This document shows positions 35,598 to 58,138 of a stretch of DNA of 64,000 nucleotides, piece by piece. Below the pieces are notes generated by a model that worked only from the letters and a program-made list of their open reading frames with translations, did not search any database and was not told where the DNA came from. Position 1 is the stretch's first letter. Each line of letters starts with the position of its first letter. Source of the DNA: Escherichia phage VEc33. The position numbers and the translations under genes were made by a program. The stretch lies in sequence record NC_048818.1; one strand, 5' to 3'.

Positions 35598-35674
35598 TGG
35601 CAAACCTACTAGGACTCGAACCTAGACCGTACGGTTTTAGAGACCGACATGCTGTCCAGTAACACTCTAGGAAT
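35598..35674 (-). tRNA. Trp-like tRNA with anticodon CTA (reads UAG), candidate amber suppressor
   Basis: T-arm CTAGG-TTCGAGT-CCTAG and discriminator G as in E. coli tRNA-Trp; anticodon arm TCGGT-CTCTAAA-ACCGT differs from the Trp loop CTCCAAA by one base; acceptor stem has two U-U mismatches. Confidence 0.4.
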
Positions 35675-37944: not shown

Positions 37945-38006
37945 ATATGTTATGGATGAGTGATCAAAGAGACACACATTTTCTATATACTAGGAGGTGT
38001 CAAAAA

Positions 38007-38978
38007 ATGACAGAAGAAGTAGCTAAGAGTCCTGAAACCGTCGCTAGCGTAGCAGCAGAACTGCATCGTCACGAGGAATCAGATAAGAAAAAGTGGGAGA
38101 AGGTCAGAGCCTACGAAGAAAAACATCGTGTTCACGATGAAGAAGATGATGATGAACATTGTCATAAATATGGAAAACATAAAATGCAAGAACCAGTAAA
38201 CGTATTCACTAGTGGCTTCCCTGGCCTACTGGGTGGTTACCCAGCAAACGCAAGTGCTTTCGGTGGTGAAGGTATGGGACTATTCGGAGCTATCCTAATC
38301 GGTGCTCTATTAACAGGCGGATTTGGTGGTTTTGGTGGTTTTGGCCGTGGTGCTGGCGTTGCCGCTGAAGGGACTGCTGTGGACGCGATCCTTTCTAACC
38401 AAGATACTGCAAGTATTCTAGCTGCAATCAATACTACTCGTACAGAAGCTAACCAGGGCACTGGGGCTGTTCTAAGCGCAGTAAACGGTGTGGGAGCTGC
38501 TCAAGCTGCTAGCACTCAGCAAGTTCTGACTACTATCTACGGTACAGGTGCTAATCTGTCAAACCAGATCTGTGCTGAAACTCGTAACGTTATTCAGGGT
38601 CAGTTCGATCTTTCTCGTCAGATGGATCAATCTTTCGCTGCTAACCAGATCGCACGTGCTCAAGATAAATTTGACTCTGCTCAGATTGCTTTCCAGCAGT
38701 CTATTCAGACCAATAACCAGTTTGCCGCTGTTCAGGCTCAGATGTGTGCTAACCAGAATGCTATCGAACGTCAGCTTGCCGAATGTTGCTGTGAGCTTCA
38801 GACTGCAATCGCTGGTGTAACTACTGCACGTATCCAGGACGAACTGAATGAATGCCGTCTGCGTGAAGCAATCGCTGCAGGTAGCGGTGCTAACGGTCAG
38901 GTAATTAATCAAATCGCTGTAAGTCTTGGTGCTATCACTCAGACTCTGGCTGGTCTGCAGGCTAAACTGCCGGCTTAA
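38007..38978 (+). CDS. Gly-zipper membrane protein with acidic His-rich N-terminus and Ala/Gln-rich C-terminal domain (about 323 aa from the RBS-supported ATG)
   Basis: AGGAGG RBS before ATG 38007; hydrophobic GLFGAILIGALLTGGFGGFGGFG segment; CCCE and other Cys near the C-terminus; no recognisable enzymatic motif. Confidence 0.55.
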   Translation: MTEEVAKSPETVASVAAELHRHEESDKKKWEKVRAYEEKHRVHDEEDDDEHCHKYGKHKMQEPVNVFTSGFPGLLGGYPANASAFGGEGMGLFGAILIGALLTGGFGGFGGFGRGAGVAAEGTAVDAILSNQDTASILAAINTTRTEANQGTGAVLSAVNGVGAAQAASTQQVLTTIYGTGANLSNQICAETRNVIQGQFDLSRQMDQSFAANQIARAQDKFDSAQIAFQQSIQTNNQFAAVQAQMCANQNAIERQLAECCCELQTAIAGVTTARIQDELNECRLREAIAAGSGANGQVINQIAVSLGAITQTLAGLQAKLPA

Positions 38979-38999
38979 TATTAAGGGGAGGAGCCCATT

Positions 39000-39416
39000 A
39001 TGAGTAAATATGGTTTTGTAAATAACGGACTTAATCAAAGTATGGGCTCCCAGCAGCCCGTTCCGGGACTGGATAACCCTTACCTACAACAGTTGCAACA
39101 GCGTTTAGCAGAAGCGCAACAGATGCAGCAACAACTCCAGCAAAACCCTGGAAGTGTGAGTCCTATGCAAATGATGCAGCAAATGAGCGGGCAGTCGCAA
39201 ATGCCTCAACAAATGCAGCAACAGGTGCCTCAGCAGCAAGTTCAGCAGCAAACCCAACAACCGCAGGTTTCTGCGGAAGGACAGGCAGTACTAGCCCTTT
39301 TCGAAGACTTCGCAAAGACAGAGGATGGGAAGCAGCTTGTATCACTTATGGGTAAGTTTAATAGCTTCTGCCAAAGCCAAGTTGCAAAAGCTCAAAATGG
39401 TGGTAATAACTCCTAA
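39000..39416 (+). CDS. Gln-rich low-complexity protein (138 aa)
   Basis: GGAGGAG RBS; poly-Q/M stretches. Confidence 0.5.
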   Translation: MSKYGFVNNGLNQSMGSQQPVPGLDNPYLQQLQQRLAEAQQMQQQLQQNPGSVSPMQMMQQMSGQSQMPQQMQQQVPQQQVQQQTQQPQVSAEGQAVLALFEDFAKTEDGKQLVSLMGKFNSFCQSQVAKAQNGGNNS

Positions 39417-40797: not shown

Positions 40798-41299
40798 TTT
40801 AAGTATTTTTAAGAACTCTCGTAAAAACTCTTAAAAATACAGACGATACCGGGAGAGTCATAAGTCTCACTCATTAAGTATTTCAAGACAAAATACGGTA
40901 ACGTCTATTATTTTCCAGTTTAAGTCAGGGTGACTTAGTGGTTATGTCCTGCGGTATATTGAGGACTCGGTTAGGCTTGGGGTCATGACTTCCCGCCTTT
41001 TGCTGCTACTCAACAGGAGTTATCGCGAATTACCTGTGCTATTGTGCACCATTAGTGACATCTCTCATGTCAGCATTTCCCACTTTGTGGATAGCTTGAA
41101 AAACTACTCCGATATGGAGAAAGAACTTCACTACCCTAGAATACCTTCTAAAGTTCTTCTTTAGCCTGGACATAGTTAAATCGTAATAAAACTATTCAGC
41201 AGACTGGTTGGTTAGTCTGGAACCAACTACCGCGTGGTTTAGGCAGTGCGCAACTAACCTCGGAAGCTTTTACGTTAAAAGCATCAGTTATCCAGTTCT

Positions 41300-41371
41300 T
41301 ACCGACCGTAGGATTCGAACCTACATCTTCCACCAGTTACGGCTTGATAATACCAATTATACTAGGACGGC
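41300..41371 (-). ncRNA. tRNA-like element (acceptor and T-arm present, anticodon arm not foldable)
   Basis: Perfect T-arm GTAGG-TTCGAAT-CCTAC and acceptor-like GCCGTCC/GGTCGGT; no CCA; sits in an 840-bp ORF-free region. Confidence 0.25.
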
Positions 41372-41647
41372 AGTGTTACTACATAAGTGATTTCCACACC
41401 CCACTATTTATAAATTAGAGAAGAGTTTAGGGGAGAGGTTTCAGACGCCTCATTTTACACGTTCTAGCCACTAACCGGGATTGCCGCCCCCCTGTGTACT
41501 AGTTTTACAACTAACCCACCGACTCTATTCAACGAATCTTAGTGCTCGACGCATCTTACATTAAGACAAGTTCAGCGTAATCGGCTCGCTGTTCCCTAAT
41601 TTATGAATATATTATACAGAATTTAAAGGCATTTAGCAAATAAATTT

Positions 41648-42091
41648 TTAATTAAATTCGCCAGCAATCTGAGCAGCAGTACCACCATCATAACGCCCAG
41701 AAAATTCTTCCTTAATCGCTTTCATCAGCATACCTTTTGTAATTCCAGGGTTTAGCTTAACTAATTCTGCAAAGTATTTACGAATCTCAGTATCAGATAA
41801 CTGAGGAGGCAGATACTCCTGCAACCACTTAGTTAGAATGTATTCATACTGAGCGGACTGCAAGCTATAACTATCAAGATCTTGACCATGAAGTTTAGCT
41901 TTCATCTGGTTAATGCTTTTTAGTTGAGCTTTGAGATAAGACACAAATTGTTCAGAAGTGATGAAATCTTTATCAATACGCTGAAGATCCCCGATTATGG
42001 TCTGATAGCTTTTAGCGACTTCTTTATCAGAACCATTAAACTTAGAATCCTGCAAAGCTCTACGCAAAACATCTAAAATATTCTCTTCCAT
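41648..42091 (-). CDS. GatB/YqeY-domain-like protein (147 aa)
   Basis: Overall similarity to YqeY-family helical proteins (recognised by eye). Confidence 0.45.
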   Translation of the reverse strand: MEENILDVLRRALQDSKFNGSDKEVAKSYQTIIGDLQRIDKDFITSEQFVSYLKAQLKSINQMKAKLHGQDLDSYSLQSAQYEYILTKWLQEYLPPQLSDTEIRKYFAELVKLNPGITKGMLMKAIKEEFSGRYDGGTAAQIAGEFN

Positions 42092-42329
42092 TATTTCATT
42101 CCTAACGCTTGGTTAAAAGATTGTTCTGTCATAACTGCTGAGACTTTGGCGAAATCAAACTTTTTAGGGTTCGTAGTGATCTCAGCAACGTTAGAAGTTT
42201 TAACAGTTTTCGTAGTACGAATACCGCGAGTGTTAACGCCAATAATTACAACTGATTTCATATTTCGCTTCCTCTCATTAATTTATGAAAGTATTATACA
42301 GAAATTTAAGTACTTAAGCAAGTAAATTT

Positions 42330-42797
42330 TTAAGTTTTAGTGACAACAGGTTTATAAAACGTATGTCCCTTAATCTTAGTTGTTTTCTTAAACTTCTTTG
42401 TCCAGTAAGGTTTATCTTTACCACTATGGAAGTACAATGCTCCATGCGTAGGATCTTGTGGTAAATCAACGTAGTATATCACTCTAGCTAAATTCTTAGC
42501 GGTTTGCCAAGCCTCATCAGTTTTATCAACTTTTGGTCTCTTAGACACCCAAGAGAACTGGTTAGACTGATATACTACTTTACAGTAGGAATCTGGGAAT
42601 TTACCAGAGTTTACACGGTTTTTAGTAACGTGTGCAATCGCCGTCATTCCCTTTATGCCCTCACCACGACTTTCGAAATAGATATTTTTAGCAATGCAAT
42701 CTATTTCTTTTGCATCGTGCGATGCCTGACTACTAAAGCTGAAGGTAAGGGCAGCTACTAAAAGCAAAGCTGCCTTCATTCTTTTTACTCCTGCCAA
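42330..42797 (-). CDS. secreted cell-wall hydrolase (SleB/CwlJ-like) (155 aa)
   Basis: Signal peptide then CIAKNIYFESRGEG...AIAHVTKNR...QFSW hydrolase-2 motifs. Confidence 0.6.
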   Translation of the reverse strand: MAGVKRMKAALLLVAALTFSFSSQASHDAKEIDCIAKNIYFESRGEGIKGMTAIAHVTKNRVNSGKFPDSYCKVVYQSNQFSWVSKRPKVDKTDEAWQTAKNLARVIYYVDLPQDPTHGALYFHSGKDKPYWTKKFKKTTKIKGHTFYKPVVTKT

Positions 42798-43102
42798 TCA
42801 TATTCAACACGATTGGGGTTTTCTTTGTACCCTAAGTCAAGCAAATCATTACGCATATGTTGCTTAGCTACTGGGTTCGAGGTTACTAGTACCACTTTCT
42901 TTGGTCTCTGCCCAAATTCTAAGAGTAAACGAAGAATTTGATAACCTTCCATACCATCTACAGCCAAGTCATTATCCATATAAACGAAGTGGCCTGTGGT
43001 ATCAGTTTTATTCAGAAACTCTACAGCGGCTTCTGGGGTTCGAATGATAATGTCCATTCCGTGAAGATTACGCACATCATCAATCAAAATATGAAAAGTC
43101 AT
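42785..43102 (-). CDS. CheY-like receiver-domain protein (105 aa)
   Basis: ILIDD acidic pair, YMDNDL..DGMEG phospho-acceptor-like Asp region, VVLVTSN and downstream Lys, in receiver-domain order. Confidence 0.45.
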   Translation of the reverse strand: MTFHILIDDVRNLHGMDIIIRTPEAAVEFLNKTDTTGHFVYMDNDLAVDGMEGYQILRLLLEFGQRPKKVVLVTSNPVAKQHMRNDLLDLGYKENPNRVEYDWQE

Positions 43103-43544
43103 AATAGCCTCGTTTCATCAATTTAAAAATATATTATACAGATAACTTAATAAATTAGCAAATACATTTTTAAATTGTGAAACTAGTAAACCGATAAACA
43201 GCCTAGAGGCGCCACAGGCCATATCTTATGAGCCATGTACCTTTGATCTAGGGTTTGAATCATCAACGAATACTTTGCATCTTTTAGCTTTAGAAGTTTA
43301 GAAGTTTGAGTTCTTTAAACTTTTCAGCTTTCATACTTAAATGTTGATCTTTGAAGTTGTGTCGGTAATATCAACGACGCTTTGTTTTTACGTGTCAGAT
43401 TAAGTGTCTGATGTAATAAACATAATCTCCAATAGATTATACTTTATAGTATGGTCAGCGGTCTTATTTAACCTCGTATTTCAACCGCTGCTGCGAGGTA
43501 AGATGCTTGGGCTTTCGTCTACCGATTTACTAGCTTTTAAATTA

Positions 43545-44183
43545 TTACTCTACTTCAATGAAGGTAGAGGCGTTAGACTCGGACAGAACAAAGTCAACAT
43601 TTGTTGCAAAGTCCTGATATTCCTCGTCATGCTGCTTAATCAGCTTCTCCAGTTCCAGCGGATCAATCAAGAATGGAGTATTCTTGAGTTCCAGCAGGTT
43701 GAGCTGCATTTTAACTTCATCTTCGGAAGTTTTCTTATCGCGGGTAGCCATGCTATCCTGCAAACGCTCATATTTAGCATCAAACTGTGCTTTCTGCGTA
43801 TTAAACTTAACCGTAGCGGCATGGAACTGCTTACGCATGTTAGCCAGTAGCTGAGCTTTAAGCTCCATAGAACGCTTAGCTTCAATTGCTTCCGCAACAG
43901 TCATCTTACGAGAGCCAATCTCAACGATTGTTTCCGCATTGCTCTTAATCAGAGCAGCTTTGATACAATCACGCTGGGACATCATATCTAGGAGAGATTG
44001 GAAATCTGCCTTAATACGAGCAGATAGATCGTCTACTTCGATTGCAGCGCCAACTACAACCTTATTTTTATCCTTACCTTCACCAACAGCGATCAGAAGC
44101 TGTTGTTCAGTAGCTTTACGGATTTTAGCTTCCAGAGATTTGATAGTTGCCAGAGCGCGAGTTTTAGAAATACGAGTAGTCAT
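43545..44183 (-). CDS. coiled-coil protein (212 aa)
   Basis: Long ORF; heptad-like Ala/Lys/Glu pattern. Confidence 0.5.
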   Translation of the reverse strand: MTTRISKTRALATIKSLEAKIRKATEQQLLIAVGEGKDKNKVVVGAAIEVDDLSARIKADFQSLLDMMSQRDCIKAALIKSNAETIVEIGSRKMTVAEAIEAKRSMELKAQLLANMRKQFHAATVKFNTQKAQFDAKYERLQDSMATRDKKTSEDEVKMQLNLLELKNTPFLIDPLELEKLIKQHDEEYQDFATNVDFVLSESNASTFIEVE

Positions 44184-44236
44184 TATTTGCTTCCTTATAT
44201 GAAGTTTGAGATTTGAATTTGTTTAAATTTGATCTA

Positions 44237-44419
44237 TTACAGACCAATTGCCAGCAGAGTGCGCAGAACAGTATCATTACTGTTATCAATTTTAGGATTA
44301 GCACGATTTAACAGATCAAAGATTTTCTGGATACCTGATTGACGTTCAGCCATACGACGGATACCAAGATTACGAGTAGCTTTCTTACCATTTTTACGAA
44401 CATTTTTAGATACTGGCAT
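44237..44419 (-). CDS. small basic protein (60 aa)
   Basis: ORF; Lys/Arg-rich N-terminus. Confidence 0.35.
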   Translation of the reverse strand: MPVSKNVRKNGKKATRNLGIRRMAERQSGIQKIFDLLNRANPKIDNSNDTVLRTLLAIGL

Positions 44420-44489
44420 ATTTGTTTTCCTTTTATTGTTTTATCAAATTTATGAATATATTATACAGAATTTTGGGGACGGAAGCAAA

Positions 44490-45191
44490 TCAAATTTTCA
44501 TTTTTTCGATCATAGCTGCAACACAATAGCTTTCAACTAAGGCATCAAATGCAGGATCATGCTTAACCGGATAGATCCCATAACGAATAGTGTCCATCTT
44601 CTCCATTTTAGCTATTGCCCAGCTAATACCTTCGGTCTCTAGAGCCTTATAACTGTATCCAGCTTGCATCCAGAGATTACGAAGAGATCGAACATTACCC
44701 AAATTCCAGAATTTCCACGGAACTACCTCTTCATTGGTTCCAGCATGGAACGTGTTTGCAGAGTAGATAGTCATATCAAACTCTGGGCCATTGCCATAAT
44801 ACAAAGCATTTTCGCCTAGAGCCAACTCCATAATATTTTGAGCCATAGAGAAGGCAGCATAGTTTGAGCCTAATTTATTAGTGCAATGATGTTTACCATT
44901 TTGGAAGGCAATCAGTTTTGGATTACGTTCCTTCATAGCTTCCATAATGTGGATAGCAGACGGGCTATTTTTAGCTTGATCCATCCAGAATGCTAGAGTA
45001 GATGCTGTAACTTTGGCACCAGAATTAAGCTGATCCTGCACATCCAAAGTAACAAATACTAGATCAGGGTCTTTATCAACCCCATGCATAGCCACAAAAG
45101 CGAAAGAAGGCATTACGATATGAGTAGTACCACAATCTCCTGGAGTTCCTAGAGATTCAATATCTAGCATACCAAATGGTTTTACTTTCAT
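44490..45191 (-). CDS. DEDDh-family 3'-5' exonuclease (233 aa)
   Basis: LDIESLG (Exo I) and HDPAFDA (Exo III) motifs. Confidence 0.6.
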   Translation of the reverse strand: MKVKPFGMLDIESLGTPGDCGTTHIVMPSFAFVAMHGVDKDPDLVFVTLDVQDQLNSGAKVTASTLAFWMDQAKNSPSAIHIMEAMKERNPKLIAFQNGKHHCTNKLGSNYAAFSMAQNIMELALGENALYYGNGPEFDMTIYSANTFHAGTNEEVVPWKFWNLGNVRSLRNLWMQAGYSYKALETEGISWAIAKMEKMDTIRYGIYPVKHDPAFDALVESYCVAAMIEKMKI

Positions 45192-45776: not shown

Positions 45777-46292
45777 TTACTTCGCTTTACGCTTGCGAGC
45801 TGGTTTAGCAGATTTACGAGCAGAATCACCAGTGAACTTAATGCCTACACCGTAACACAGAGCACGAACATTATCTTTACTATACTCTACGCCAAAGATA
45901 TTTGGCTTAACAGAACCAAACTGTCCACGAGTATCACGCAATACATCTGCTGTTGGTTTACGCTTCTGGTTAACTGCTTTCTCGTAATCTTTCATGGCCA
46001 TGCCATTACGAGGGAACAATTCTGCTCCAGCATTGAAACTCAGTACTACTGGAACAGATTTGTGACCGTAACCCTGTACATAGGTCACAAGGTGGGCTAC
46101 AGAACGAGTAGCGTTCTTAGCCTTCGGCTTTTGACGAATCGGAGCCGGATTATTTAGTGCTTGCGCAGCCTGAGTATCGGTAGGATGCTTACGCAGGTGG
46201 CGTTCCAGACGAGCTTTACGGTTAGCCTCAGTCTGAGGGAAAGTTTTAACTGTAGTAGCTGCTTGAGTTTTTGCGTTTTTCTGCTTAGCCAT
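45777..46292 (-). CDS. basic, likely nucleic-acid-binding protein (171 aa)
   Basis: Lys/Arg-rich termini. Confidence 0.5.
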   Translation of the reverse strand: MAKQKNAKTQAATTVKTFPQTEANRKARLERHLRKHPTDTQAAQALNNPAPIRQKPKAKNATRSVAHLVTYVQGYGHKSVPVVLSFNAGAELFPRNGMAMKDYEKAVNQKRKPTADVLRDTRGQFGSVKPNIFGVEYSKDNVRALCYGVGIKFTGDSARKSAKPARKRKAK

Positions 46293-46375
46293 TATTTGTT
46301 TTCCTTTTTGTTTATCAATTTATGAAGTATATTATACGGTAATTTGAAGCGTTTAGCAAATGAATTTTTTAAAAA

Positions 46376-46654
46376 TTATCTACCAACCATCTTGGCTTGT
46401 TCTGCATCGGAAACATATTGATACGCTCCTTTATTATACGCTGGAGCAGTACACATTTTCTTACGCTCAATCTCTTCTTGGGCTTTTCTTTCGCGTTCAG
46501 CTAATTCTTCATCCAGATAAACTAAACGTTGTTCTGGAGGAGGTGGAAGACGTGTTTCTGGCTCACCAATATTAGCCTTTCTTATTTGACGAGGTGATTG
46601 TGCACGTTTTCTCAACGGTTTAAATCCTAATGAATTTGAGTTATAAATTCGCAT
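46376..46654 (-). CDS. hypothetical protein (92 aa)
   Basis: ORF. Confidence 0.4.
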   Translation of the reverse strand: MRIYNSNSLGFKPLRKRAQSPRQIRKANIGEPETRLPPPPEQRLVYLDEELAERERKAQEEIERKKMCTAPAYNKGAYQYVSDAEQAKMVGR

Positions 46655-46730
46655 AAAGCCCTCCTCACTTTCAATACGAATATTATACTAAATTAGAGGG
46701 CTTTAAGCAAGAAGATTTTTAATTTATTTA

Positions 46731-47219
46731 TTACATCTCAGCCATTTCAGCTTCAGTAATAACTGTGTTACACAATGCATCTACAGCTTCATTACCACTA
46801 ATACCAGAATGTCCTTTAACCTTAATAAAGGTAGGATTAGTATTGTGAAAGTTGATATACTGCTGTGTTAATTTAAATGCTTCCTGCCAAAGTTCTAGAT
46901 TAAGAGGGACTTCACCATCTGCTTTCTTCCAGCCTTTCCTTTGCCAAGAAAACATCCAACTTTCCATACCATTTTTGCAATAAGCAGAGTCAGTATAGAT
47001 AGCAATTGGTCTATTATCTTTTTTAACAGACCAACGTAGGGCTTCTACGATAGCTGTGAGTTCCATCTCATTATTTGTAGTTTTAGGATTATAACCAGAT
47101 TTAGAACCTAAACGATCGTCGTTATCATCATAGACAATAAAACCCCAAGCACCTGGACCTGGATTAGACTTACAAGCACCATCTGTGTAAATGTGGAAAA
47201 CCGACATTATACCTCCCAA
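46731..47219 (-). CDS. rnhA: ribonuclease H (162 aa)
   Basis: IYTDGACKSNPGPGAWG ... TNNEMEL ... YTDS RNase H motifs. Confidence 0.7.
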   Translation of the reverse strand: MGGIMSVFHIYTDGACKSNPGPGAWGFIVYDDNDDRLGSKSGYNPKTTNNEMELTAIVEALRWSVKKDNRPIAIYTDSAYCKNGMESWMFSWQRKGWKKADGEVPLNLELWQEAFKLTQQYINFHNTNPTFIKVKGHSGISGNEAVDALCNTVITEAEMAEM

Positions 47220-56477: not shown

Positions 56478-56640
56478 TCCAGAAAACATGCTTATTGAGC
56501 AATGGAACTTTGGTTATAATGCTGGTGTAGCTACTTGTATTGCTAGATTGGATACGCTTATTAAGCAAGAAAAGGTACGCCCTGAGGAAGCAATTTTACT
56601 CCGAAATATTATCGAAGGATTTAAGCAAGGAATCGTATAG
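56446..56640 (+). CDS. hypothetical protein (about 64 aa from the internal Met)
   Basis: GGAGGAG RBS before ATG 56446. Confidence 0.4.
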   Translation: MDFLNQNLKSNPENMLIEQWNFGYNAGVATCIARLDTLIKQEKVRPEEAILLRNIIEGFKQGIV

Positions 56641-57476
56641 TGCGTAGATTAATTATTATTAGCGGTGCAGGTTTGAGTGTTGAAAGTGGTGTACGAGCTT
56701 TTCGTACTGATACTGCTAGTGGTAAAGCATTGTGGGATGATTATGATCTAGAAGAAGTATGTAATATTCATGCCTTTCGTGGTAATTTTTATCATAAAAC
56801 CCATATGTTTTACAACAAACGTCGTGAAGAGCTAAAAACTGTTGAACCCAATCTTGCACATTTGCGTATTGGTGAATGGTATAAACAATATCCAGGTCAA
56901 GTAGTAAACTTGACTACCAACGTTGATGACCTTATTGAGCGTGCTGGCGTTCCACATAGTGACATTCTGCACATTCACGGATATTTAAAAGAGGTTGTTG
57001 TAGCTGATAGCTACAATAGTAGCAATAAACGGATTATTGATGTAGGGTATAATTCTATTGATCCAGATGATTATAAATGGGTTAAACCTAATGTAATCTT
57101 CTTTGGAGAACATGCTCCTGCATACGCAGAAATGTATAATGTTTTTGATGGTATTACCAGTCAAGATATGATCATTGTGGTTGGTTGCTCTAATCAAGTA
57201 ATTAACTTCTACTGGGAATTATTTCCTGTTCTTAATTTGACTGCTGCCAAACTAATGGTAGTTAACTACTATGATAGTGCCATAGCAGCAGAGCCAGGCT
57301 ATCAAGGTATGACTCGTAGTGAGATGTACCAACTGGAAGATCGTGGTATTCCTTACTGGAGTAATGGTGCGGTAGATGCTTTTAGTGACCCTGATTTTAT
57401 TGCTCGTGTGGAAGCCCATTTAGAGGGTAGACCTTATGTGCCGGAGAGAAGGGGAAACAGATATGTCCATAGTTAA
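56640..57476 (+). CDS. Sir2-family (sirtuin-like) NAD-dependent protein (278 aa, GTG start)
   Basis: GAGLSVESGVRAFR N-terminal nucleotide-binding motif typical of sirtuins. Confidence 0.6.
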   Translation: MRRLIIISGAGLSVESGVRAFRTDTASGKALWDDYDLEEVCNIHAFRGNFYHKTHMFYNKRREELKTVEPNLAHLRIGEWYKQYPGQVVNLTTNVDDLIERAGVPHSDILHIHGYLKEVVVADSYNSSNKRIIDVGYNSIDPDDYKWVKPNVIFFGEHAPAYAEMYNVFDGITSQDMIIVVGCSNQVINFYWELFPVLNLTAAKLMVVNYYDSAIAAEPGYQGMTRSEMYQLEDRGIPYWSNGAVDAFSDPDFIARVEAHLEGRPYVPERRGNRYVHS

Positions 57477-57645
57477 ATCTGTTTATACACATCCCGATGA
57501 TATATTTGTATGGGCGGACGGTAGTTGGTGCTATCGCTGTGAGCTATGGGAAATGGACTATAAATCCGATGATTATGGTGTCATATATGTTGATACGGTT
57601 GAGTATGATACGTTCTTAGAAAGGGACAAAAATGGAAATAAGTAA
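57463..57645 (+). CDS. hypothetical small protein (60 aa)
   Basis: Internal Met with RBS; overlaps neighbours. Confidence 0.35.
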   Translation: MSIVKSVYTHPDDIFVWADGSWCYRCELWEMDYKSDDYGVIYVDTVEYDTFLERDKNGNK

Positions 57646-58138
57646 TACTCCAATTATTTTTCTAGATATTGATGGGGTGCTCAACTCGAGCATCTCCCAT
57701 CACCATGCACCTGATGATGAAAAGATTTTCTTTGGAAGTGACTGGGTTTTTAAACCGCTTCTCAAGGCTTTTCAGGATTTTATTCGTCCTTCTCCAATAA
57801 TGATTGTTGGGGTATCTTCATGGTTCTCTGTCAGGAATGAGATGGAGAACGTTCAGATTATGACCGGATTAGATCTTATCGATCGTTTTCTTGGTACAAC
57901 GGATTTTACTGGTGGTGGATTATCTAGGGGTAATTCTGTTCTTCGCTTCGTTGAAAAGCATAAGCTCAAACATTGGTGTGTGCTGGATGATGCTGGTGCT
58001 ATGATGTATCAGTATCCAACGGTTATAGTCAATGGTAGAACTGGAATAAATCTTCAAGATTTAAGAGCTGTTAGCTATATGTTAGAATTTAGTCCAGATC
58101 TTGAAATGTGTAAAGCCCTGCAACAATTTAAGGTGTAA
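57632..58138 (+). CDS. HAD-like hydrolase (168 aa)
   Basis: N-terminal FLDIDGVLN (DxDGxL) motif and downstream VLDDAG. Confidence 0.5.
   Translation: MEISNTPIIFLDIDGVLNSSISHHHAPDDEKIFFGSDWVFKPLLKAFQDFIRPSPIMIVGVSSWFSVRNEMENVQIMTGLDLIDRFLGTTDFTGGGLSRGNSVLRFVEKHKLKHWCVLDDAGAMMYQYPTVIVNGRTGINLQDLRAVSYMLEFSPDLEMCKALQQFKV

What the first reader, a model, noticed from the sequence alone, without database searches (positions are those of the whole stretch)
42785..43102. Orphan CheY-like receiver-domain protein
The 105-aa ORF has, in the right order, an N-terminal acidic pair (ILIDD), a central Asp in a MDNDL...DG context, a Thr/Ser (VVLVTSN) and a downstream Lys, matching the hallmark residues of response-regulator receiver domains. 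There is no output domain and no kinase in the window. It could act as a phosphate sink or a mimic interfering with a host two-component pathway.
Basis: inference. Interest (0 to 1): 0.5.

Follow-up and report, generated by a model that had tools for sequence, protein, structure and literature searches.

The report
Phage T5-type minimal receiver-fold (cREC) protein
The 105-residue gene is real and does have a CheY-like receiver fold, but it belongs to the already catalogued, phage-specific "cREC" family (T5 gene T5.084), which has lost the parts a receiver needs to talk to histidine kinases and is more likely a small phosphate-processing enzyme of still untested function.

Summary

The signalling interpretation is not supported:
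- The model lacks helices alpha1 and alpha5.
- The hallmark Lys is not conserved.
- The family instead conserves DDxR, R21, D-x-D, (T/S)-x-N and G53.
- Nearly all relatives seen are stand-alone proteins of about 100 aa.
- None of the 12 phage neighbourhoods inspected shows a histidine kinase.

In Klebsiella phage BIS47, a cREC gene sits between an Rnl1-type RNA ligase and a P-loop kinase, near a Sir2 that is 62.5% identical to this window's Sir2. The window itself carries Sir2 plus an RNA-repair HAD phosphatase 13.5 kb away, and 23 tRNA genes.

The best reading is a minimal aspartyl-phosphate-type phosphoesterase acting on RNA-end or ADP-ribose-derived phosphates, as Aravind's group predicted. 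No member has been tested, and most stand-alone loci show no such neighbours. The family is already known, so interest is low to moderate.

The parts
42785..43102 (-). cREC coding sequence (105 aa plus stop), ortholog of T5.084. Key residues: D8, D9, R11, D17, R21, D43, D45, G53, P67, T74, N76, Y92.
   Evidence: ORF; Pfam PF20274; PHROG 1479; conservation; structure; T5 ortholog; dN/dS.
43108..43111 (-). Shine-Dalgarno-like GAGG, 5 nt upstream of the ATG.
   Evidence: Read directly from the sequence.
43133..43161 (-). Sigma-70-type promoter-like site, TTGCTA-17-TATAAT (10 of 12 matches), about 30 nt upstream of the ATG.
   Evidence: the number of such sites in the region is not above the shuffle expectation. 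T5's own annotation places a promoter at the homologous position directly upstream of T5.084.
42330..42779 (-). SleB/CwlJ-type cell-wall hydrolase gene (Hydrolase_2), starting 5 nt after the cREC stop and probably co-transcribed. The adjacency is specific to the T5 lineage.
   Evidence: Pfam; annotation; not adjacent in phage My1.
56640..57476 (+). SIR2-family gene. It is a candidate, unlinked functional partner (inference only): its 62.5%-identical ortholog in phage BIS47 lies in one gene cluster with an RNA ligase, a cREC gene and a kinase.
57632..58138 (+). HAD_SAK_2 ('Swiss-army-knife' RNA-repair HAD phosphatase) gene next to SIR2. It is a candidate member of the same dispersed end-healing toolkit (inference only).
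   Evidence: The pairing is described for T5-like phages in PMC9503650.

Best explanation
This is the T5.084-type stand-alone cREC protein. It is a stripped-down receiver fold (five-stranded core, three helices, no alpha1 or alpha5) whose strand ends carry an acidic pocket. That pocket is made of D8/D9 (beta1), D43-x-D45 (beta3) and T74-x-N76 (beta4), flanked by two conserved arginines (R11, R21). The gene has its own promoter-like site in the early/auxiliary region of a T5-like phage. It does not take part in two-component signalling.

The most likely role (inferred, not shown) is a small phosphoesterase. By analogy, D43 would be transiently phosphorylated like CheY D57, and the D+2 aspartate D45 would act as general acid/base, as in DxD (HAD / T4 Pnkp-type) phosphatases. 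D8/D9 would hold Mg2+ and the arginines would bind the substrate phosphate.

The likely substrates are cyclic or terminal phosphates on cleaved RNA (tRNA) ends, or on ADP-ribose-derived products. The protein would work with the phage's Sir2 and HAD-SAK genes to undo damage from host anticodon nucleases or NAD-based defences.

What is shown here: gene reality, family membership, fold, the conserved residue set, and lack of kinase partners in the sampled loci. What is inferred: catalysis, substrate and pathway.
For: - Active-site-like conservation over 149 divergent representatives: D8, D9, R11, R21, D43, D45, G53, T/S74 and N76, all at >=94%.
- hhalign puts D43 on CheY D57, D45 on the D+2 position and N76 on T+2.
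- Purifying selection: dN/dS 0.09-0.17.
- Context: in Klebsiella phage BIS47 the order is Metallophos, two small ORFs, Rnl1 RNA ligase, cREC, AAA_33 kinase, a 74-aa ORF, SIR2, DNA ligase. That SIR2 is 62.5% identical to the window's.
- A metagenomic locus has an Rnl1 ligase 1 kb from its cREC gene.
- The window holds SIR2 plus HAD_SAK_2, two Metallophos genes and 23 tRNA genes.
- 50 Vibrio phage records carry cREC and 50 carry this Sir2; I did not check that they are the same records.
- The published prediction points the same way (PMC7824862; PMC9503650).
Against: - No member of the family has been tested; PMC9503650 says so explicitly.
- In the window the gene is not next to any NAD or RNA-repair gene. 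Its immediate partner is a secreted-looking SleB-type hydrolase.
- Sir2/HAD lie 13.5 kb away on the other strand.
- No RNA ligase is annotated in the 99%-identical phage.
- In 11 distant stand-alone loci, none has Sir2, Macro, NADAR or Nudix within 5-6 kb, and only one has an RNA ligase. SprT-like (4 of 11), Metallophos (2), Ribosomal_L12-like (2) and DNA-replication genes are the neighbours instead.
- hhalign support for the residue equivalences is weak (probability 43%).
- The active-site geometry was not inspected in coordinates.
- The authors who defined the family describe the site as metal-independent, so the Mg2+ part is my own inference.
Confidence: 0.45

Rival explanations
1. Non-catalytic binder ('sponge') of a phosphate-bearing small molecule. 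The acidic and arginine pocket would sequester a host immune signal (a cyclic nucleotide or an ADP-ribose-derived messenger) without cleaving it, as small phage anti-defence proteins do.
For: The protein is small (about 100 aa), stand-alone, phage-restricted and highly abundant (2,076 clusters). It sits in early/auxiliary regions full of small unknown genes. It has conserved charged pocket residues, including two arginines. Loss of alpha1 and alpha5 exposes a sheet face that could drive oligomerisation (inference).
Against: The set of residues retained is the catalytic set of receiver domains, plus a DxD arrangement typical of phosphatases. There is operonic linkage to an RNA ligase and a kinase in BIS47. 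No fold similarity to known sponges was seen.
Confidence: 0.15
2. One reading: an orphan CheY-like receiver that is phosphorylated by host histidine kinases or acetyl phosphate, and acts as a phosphate sink or mimic in a host two-component pathway.
For: It has a receiver fold. The acidic pair, the phospho-acceptor-equivalent Asp and the Thr are conserved, so small-molecule phosphodonors might still phosphorylate it.
Against: There is no match to Response_reg. Alpha1 and alpha5 are absent in a pLDDT-94 model; alpha1 is the kinase-docking helix (established knowledge). The Lys and the D+4 Pro, invariant in the six classical receivers aligned, are absent. No kinase lies near any of 12 loci. The family is reported never to occur with histidine kinases. 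The protein is conserved in phages of very different hosts (Escherichia/Salmonella, Pectobacterium, Vibrio and unassigned metagenomic contigs), which argues against a host-specific kinase partner.
Confidence: 0.04
3. A DNA-directed function: a Toprim-like metal-binding nuclease or accessory module acting in replication, recombination or homing.
For: The DxD...G motif and acidic beta1 end loosely recall Toprim. In-frame HNH_3-cREC fusions occur at the same locus in JLBYU43 and Kenya-K38. DNA polymerase A or a UvrD helicase lies immediately adjacent in two loci. SprT-like genes are nearby in 4 of 11 loci.
Confidence: 0.08
4. A non-enzymatic partner or regulator of its downstream neighbour, the SleB-type cell-wall hydrolase, within a T5-specific operon.
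For: There is a 5-nt gap to the hydrolase gene, on the same strand, with one promoter-like site upstream. Peptidoglycan hydrolases lie within 5 kb in three other loci.
Against: The adjacency is lost in the related phage My1 and absent in most distant loci. The hydrolase has a signal-peptide-like N-terminus while the cREC protein has none, so they would sit in different compartments. Every phage encodes lysins, so proximity is expected by chance.
Confidence: 0.06

Closest known systems
cREC_REC, 'cyclic-phosphate processing receiver domain' (Pfam PF20274; Iyer et al. 2021, PMC7824862; Iyer et al. 2022, PMC9503650)
   Same: Full-length profile match above the curated cut-off, the same conserved Asp/Arg/Thr/Asn set, a receiver-like Rossmannoid fold, restriction to phages, and no kinase partner. 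Identical and near-identical proteins are already labelled with this name by UniRef and NCBI.
   Different: Nothing that excludes membership. The T5-like subgroup has Asn rather than the commoner His between the two Asp of DxD, and Ala rather than Gly at position 47. It is not adjacent to NAD or RNA-repair genes, unlike the contexts used to name the family.
Single-domain response regulators (CheY, Spo0F; Pfam Response_reg PF00072)
   Same: Parallel-sheet core, the beta1 acidic pair, the beta3 Asp, the beta4 Thr, and the Gly that starts the helix after beta3.
   Different: No PF00072 match, no alpha1 or alpha5, no beta5 Lys, no D+4 Pro, additional invariant R11/R21/D45/N76, and no histidine kinase or Hpt partner.
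DxDxT acylphosphatases of the HAD superfamily, e.g. the 3'-phosphatase domain of T4 polynucleotide kinase-phosphatase (own knowledge)
   Same: What it may work like: an Asp nucleophile plus an Asp two residues later, on a Rossmannoid fold, in an RNA heal-and-seal context. BIS47 has a ligase and a kinase but no HAD profile hit among the ten cluster proteins scanned.
   Different: The DxD sits after beta3, not beta1. There is no cap module and no HAD profile match. It is not a member.
2H phosphoesterases (LigT/CPDase type)
   Same: The predicted functional analogue: opening of 2',3'- or 1''-2''-cyclic phosphates (PMC9503650).
   Different: An unrelated fold and a His-based, metal-independent active site.

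Membership tests
cREC_REC (PF20274) | Profile match above the curated gathering score over the whole domain | tested here: met
   54.8 bits against a cut-off of 27, E 1.5e-14, model positions 2-86 of 88.
cREC_REC (PF20274) | Conserved aspartates at the receiver active-site positions, with the family-specific extras | tested here: met
   D8, D9, R11, R21, D43, D45, T74 and N76 are all present in the query and conserved at >=94% in 149 representatives.
cREC_REC (PF20274) | Receiver-like Rossmannoid fold | tested here: met
cREC_REC (PF20274) | Never associated with histidine kinases | tested here: met
   No kinase in the window's near-identical annotated relative or in 11 distant loci.
cREC_REC (PF20274) | Gene-neighbourhood or fusion link to NAD+/ADPr-processing or RNA-repair genes | tested here: inconclusive
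   Not adjacent in the window; SIR2 plus HAD_SAK_2 lie 13.5 kb away. Clear linkage in BIS47 and one Rnl1 linkage among 11 loci. None of the 11 has Sir2, Macro, NADAR or Nudix nearby.
cREC_REC (PF20274) | Cyclic-phosphate-processing activity | not testable with these tools
   A prediction only; the family is stated to be experimentally uncharacterised (PMC9503650).
Canonical response-regulator receiver (PF00072, CheY-like) | Match to the Response_reg profile | tested here: not met
   Not reported even at E<=10. Sequence searches of the PDB give CheY or other receiver domains only at E about 0.9-1.1.
Canonical response-regulator receiver (PF00072, CheY-like) | Complete (beta-alpha)5 sandwich, including alpha1 and alpha5 | tested here: not met
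   The model has strands at 4-7, 18-20, 39-42, 69-72, 93-94 and 100-102, and only three helices at 23-32, 53-62 and 77-89. This rests on a predicted model, not a solved structure.
Canonical response-regulator receiver (PF00072, CheY-like) | Acidic pair after beta1, phospho-acceptor Asp after beta3, Thr/Ser after beta4 | tested here: met
   D8/D9, D43 (= CheY D57) and T74 (= CheY T87).
Canonical response-regulator receiver (PF00072, CheY-like) | Invariant Lys after beta5 | tested here: not met
   K93 is Lys in 19% of the family, and no conserved Lys lies in residues 90-105. K109 is invariant in the six classical receivers aligned.
Canonical response-regulator receiver (PF00072, CheY-like) | Cognate histidine kinase or phosphotransfer partner | tested here: not met
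   None in the phage or in related loci. An interaction with host kinases cannot be tested here.
HAD-superfamily DxD phosphatases | HAD profile match, with motif I DxD after beta1 | tested here: not met
   No HAD family in the Pfam scan at E<=10; the DxD follows beta3.
Toprim domain | Toprim profile or fold match | tested here: not met

The most novel reading that the evidence does not exclude
cREC could be a new class of minimal aspartyl-phosphate enzyme: a receiver fold converted into a phosphoesterase. In T5-like phages it would either heal cleaved tRNA ends for re-ligation without any phage ligase, or destroy a cyclic-phosphate or ADP-ribose-derived host immune signal. Either role would make T5.084 an anti-defence gene in a classical model phage.
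Probability: 0.3. Interest if true: 0.6.

Novelty: already known. Interest (0 to 1): 0.3.

Why it matters
The fold and family are already in Pfam, and NCBI and UniRef already use the name, so nothing here is a discovery. Two things are useful. First, the tempting "phage CheY that hijacks host signalling" reading can be set aside. Second, the family is very large (over 2,000 clusters), is present in the model phage T5, and has never been tested biochemically. T5.084 is therefore an easy entry point for finding out what a receiver fold does once it is freed from kinases. My small sample also shows that the published NAD/RNA-repair association holds for some lineages (BIS47) but not for most stand-alone copies, so the function should not be treated as settled.

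Tried and rejected
- NCBIfam and PADLOC gave no hits.
- A single-sequence search of the PDB gave only noise: designed beta-trefoils at E 0.02, and CheY at E 0.9.
- A family-profile search of the PDB returned TAL-effector repeats at E 1e-16. I rejected this as an artefact. Each repeat scores only 3-7 bits (per-repeat E above 50) on a short 'P..VV.I.SN' look-alike, and the total is just a sum over many tandem repeats.
- The Pfam PalB_C hit at E 0.2 is noise.
- The search for related loci with the diverse alignment failed because no block was conserved enough.
- The afdb50 structure library was not available.
- Literature searches for T5.084, its accession and KVP40.0304 found nothing relevant. 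A paper on Tequintavirus Bas33 pre-early genes and the HIDEN-SEQ essentiality preprint contain nothing on this gene.
- I considered that adjacency to the SleB-type hydrolase indicated a joint function. I rejected this because My1 and the distant loci do not keep the adjacency.
- No cREC gene lies within 7 kb of the Sir2 ortholog in phages VEcB or Vibrio D480.

Full report
**1. The observation**

The window comes from a T5-like phage (Demerecviridae, Tequintavirus). Bases 41000-45000 are 99.0% identical to Salmonella phage MET_P1_179_112, and 448 phage records match them.

The ORF lies at 42785..43102 on the minus strand, starts with ATG and encodes 105 aa. A GAGG sits 5 nt before the ATG. A TTGCTA-17-TATAAT site lies at 43161..43133. 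The T5 reference annotation places a promoter at the homologous position upstream of the ortholog T5.084, which is annotated 'hypothetical protein, similar to KVP40.0304'.

Proteins 100% identical to this one are encoded in deposited phages. Against the T5 and HdH2 orthologs, dN/dS is 0.09-0.17. This is a real gene under purifying selection.

**2. Family**

Pfam matches cREC_REC (PF20274, 'cyclic-phosphate processing receiver domain') at E 1.5e-14 and 54.8 bits against a cut-off of 27. The match covers model positions 2-86 of 88. The canonical Response_reg model is not reported even at E<=10.

PHROG 1479 (unknown function) matches at E 1.5e-29. NCBIfam and PADLOC give nothing. UniRef and NCBI already name close homologs 'cyclic-phosphate processing receiver domain-containing protein'.

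A profile search of 1.84 billion cluster representatives finds 440 at E<=1e-3, nearly all about 100 aa long. A second search finds 2,076 clusters at 90% identity, and the best 120 are all single-domain proteins. The only fusion partner identified among the ten longer proteins scanned is an HNH_3 domain N-terminal to cREC.

**3. Structure**

The model is not a full (beta-alpha)5 receiver, however. Strand 4-7 connects to strand 18-20 by a loop with no helix alpha1. After the third helix (77-89) come only short strands (93-94 and 100-102), with no alpha5.

**4. Residues**

Over 149 representatives sharing <=50% identity, these positions are conserved:
- D8 and D9, 99% each
- R11, 94%
- D17, 87%
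- R21, 98%
- D43, 99%
- position 44, His 61% or Asn 34%
- D45, 99%
- G47, 93% (Ala in the query)
- G53, 100%
- P67, 93%
- T/S74, 100%
- N76, 99%
- Y92, 89%

A profile-profile alignment against six classical receivers gave a weak but structurally consistent result (probability 43%, E 2.6e-4). CheY was verified against PDB chains; the other five were not. The alignment places:
- D43 on CheY D57
- D45 on the 'D+2' position (N59)
- G53 on G65
- T74 on T87
- N76 on 'T+2' (E89)

Four of the five hallmark positions are thus kept. The Lys is lost, as is the D+4 Pro that is invariant in the classical set. The family adds two arginines and an Asp/Asn pair at exactly the two positions known, from work on CheY-type receivers (own knowledge), to tune phosphoryl-group chemistry.

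An Asp nucleophile followed two residues later by a second Asp is the hallmark of HAD-type phosphatases such as the T4 Pnkp phosphatase domain (own knowledge). That is why I read the pocket as catalytic rather than as a signalling switch.

**5. Context in the window**

The cREC gene is followed after 5 nt by a SleB/CwlJ-type cell-wall hydrolase with a signal-peptide-like N-terminus. After that come DUF7616, a YqeY-like protein, the region homologous to T5 'RNAX', tRNA-Arg, and an SPFH protein.

Upstream lie a 440-bp intergenic region, a 212-aa protein with no family match, and an Rv2179c-like exoribonuclease-fold protein.

The window has 23 tRNA genes. It has two Metallophos genes at 17.3-18.7 kb. 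On the plus strand at 56640-58138 it has a SIR2 gene directly followed by a HAD_SAK_2 'Swiss-army-knife RNA-repair' phosphatase. That pairing is the one PMC9503650 describes for T5-like phages.

Relatives also carry NadR/PnuC and a DUF1768/NADAR gene. This window lacks both. No histidine kinase and no RNA ligase is annotated in the 99%-identical phage.

**6. Context elsewhere**

The adjacency to the hydrolase is not kept in Pectobacterium phage My1.

I inspected 11 distant stand-alone loci, with these results:

| Neighbour within 5-6 kb | Loci (of 11) |
|---|---|
| SprT-like gene | 4 |
| Metallophos gene | 2 |
| Ribosomal_L12-like gene overlapping the cREC stop | 2 |
| Rnl1-type RNA ligase, 1 kb away | 1 |
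| DNA polymerase A immediately adjacent | 1 |
| UvrD helicase immediately adjacent | 1 |
| Sir2, Macro, NADAR or Nudix | 0 |

The window's Sir2 has orthologs in rV5-like and Mydovirus phages and in 50 Vibrio phage records. The cREC search also found 50 Vibrio records; I did not check that they are the same records.

In Klebsiella phage BIS47, whose Sir2 is 62.5% identical, the gene order is Metallophos, two small ORFs, RNA_lig_T4_1, cREC_REC (E 2.1e-17), an AAA_33 P-loop kinase, a 74-aa ORF, SIR2, then an ATP-dependent DNA ligase. That is an RNA heal-and-seal cassette with a ligase and a kinase but no Pnkp-type phosphatase. It leaves cREC as the obvious candidate for the end-healing phosphoesterase.

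This independently reproduces one of the neighbourhoods reported in PMC9503650. No cREC gene is near the Sir2 ortholog in VEcB or Vibrio D480.

**7. Literature**

The family was defined by comparative genomics in PMC7824862 and revisited in PMC9503650. Those papers predict resolution of 2',3'-cyclic RNA ends or 1''-2'' cyclic ADP-ribose phosphate. They state that cREC 'remain[s] experimentally uncharacterized'. I found nothing on T5.084 itself.

**8. Conclusion**

It is a receiver fold, but a minimal, kinase-independent one that belongs to a known phage family.

My best mechanistic reading is a small phosphoesterase acting through D43/D45 on RNA-end or ADP-ribose-derived phosphates, as part of a dispersed Sir2/HAD toolkit protecting tRNAs. 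This is an inference, which I put at about 0.45. The alternatives, with my estimates, are:
- a small-molecule sponge, 0.15
- a DNA-directed role, 0.08
- a partner of the neighbouring hydrolase, 0.06

The remaining probability is 'something else'. On novelty, this is an already known family and an already labelled protein. The open question is its biochemistry.

Noticed in passing
window 35598..35674 (-): A tRNA with anticodon CTA (reads amber UAG). It is identical to the tRNA-Trp(CCA) of phage HdH2 except for one C-to-T change in the anticodon. Phage MET_P1_179_112 also has CCA and differs at one further position. So this phage carries an amber-suppressor-type variant of its tRNA-Trp.
   Followed up: partly
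window 56640..57476 (+) and 57632..58138 (+): A SIR2-family gene directly followed by a HAD_SAK_2 ('Swiss-army-knife' RNA-repair phosphatase) gene. This is a predicted NAD-dependent RNA-end-healing pair. The Sir2 clade is shared with rV5-like, Mydovirus and Vibrio phages.
   Followed up: partly
L011 2485..3306 (Escherichia phage JLBYU43); also Salmonella phage Kenya-K38: At the same locus, a 273-aa in-frame fusion of an HNH_3 endonuclease domain to a complete cREC domain. It fills what is a 440-bp intergenic region in the window. The cREC part is only about 51% identical to the window's protein, although the flanking genes have the same order and lengths as in the window. This suggests replacement by a mobile cassette.
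   Followed up: partly
window 40798..41647 (-), especially 41300..41371: This ORF-free stretch is 92-98% identical to the T5 region annotated as 'RNAX, stable RNA with unknown functions'. Rfam finds a tRNA-like element inside it at 41300..41371 (35.5 bits, gathering score 29) that ARAGORN did not call.
   Followed up: partly
window 46292..46731 and 37947..39416: This phage lacks the DUF1768/NADAR gene that HdH2 has between DUF7022 and RNase H (a same-sized 450-nt gene is also at that position in MET_P1_179_112). It also has the T5-type pair of unannotated plus-strand ORFs (no Pfam hit) where MET_P1_179_112 has nadR and pnuC. The NAD-related accessory genes are therefore variable among near-identical T5-like phages.
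   Followed up: partly
L006 6306..6659 and L018 5312..5674: In two metagenomic phage contigs (32.5 and 77 kb, from different samples), a gene with a Ribosomal_L12 (C-terminal domain) hit overlaps the stop codon of the cREC gene. This is a recurrent and unexplained pairing.
   Followed up: no
cREC family profile, query positions 52-87: The 'P-x-x-V-V-L-V-T-S-N-P-V-A' segment resembles the TAL-effector repeat ('LTPEQVVAIASNxGGKQALE') closely enough that tandem TALE repeats add up to E 1e-16 in a profile search. Each repeat alone is insignificant, so I judged this a chance or compositional artefact.
   Followed up: yes
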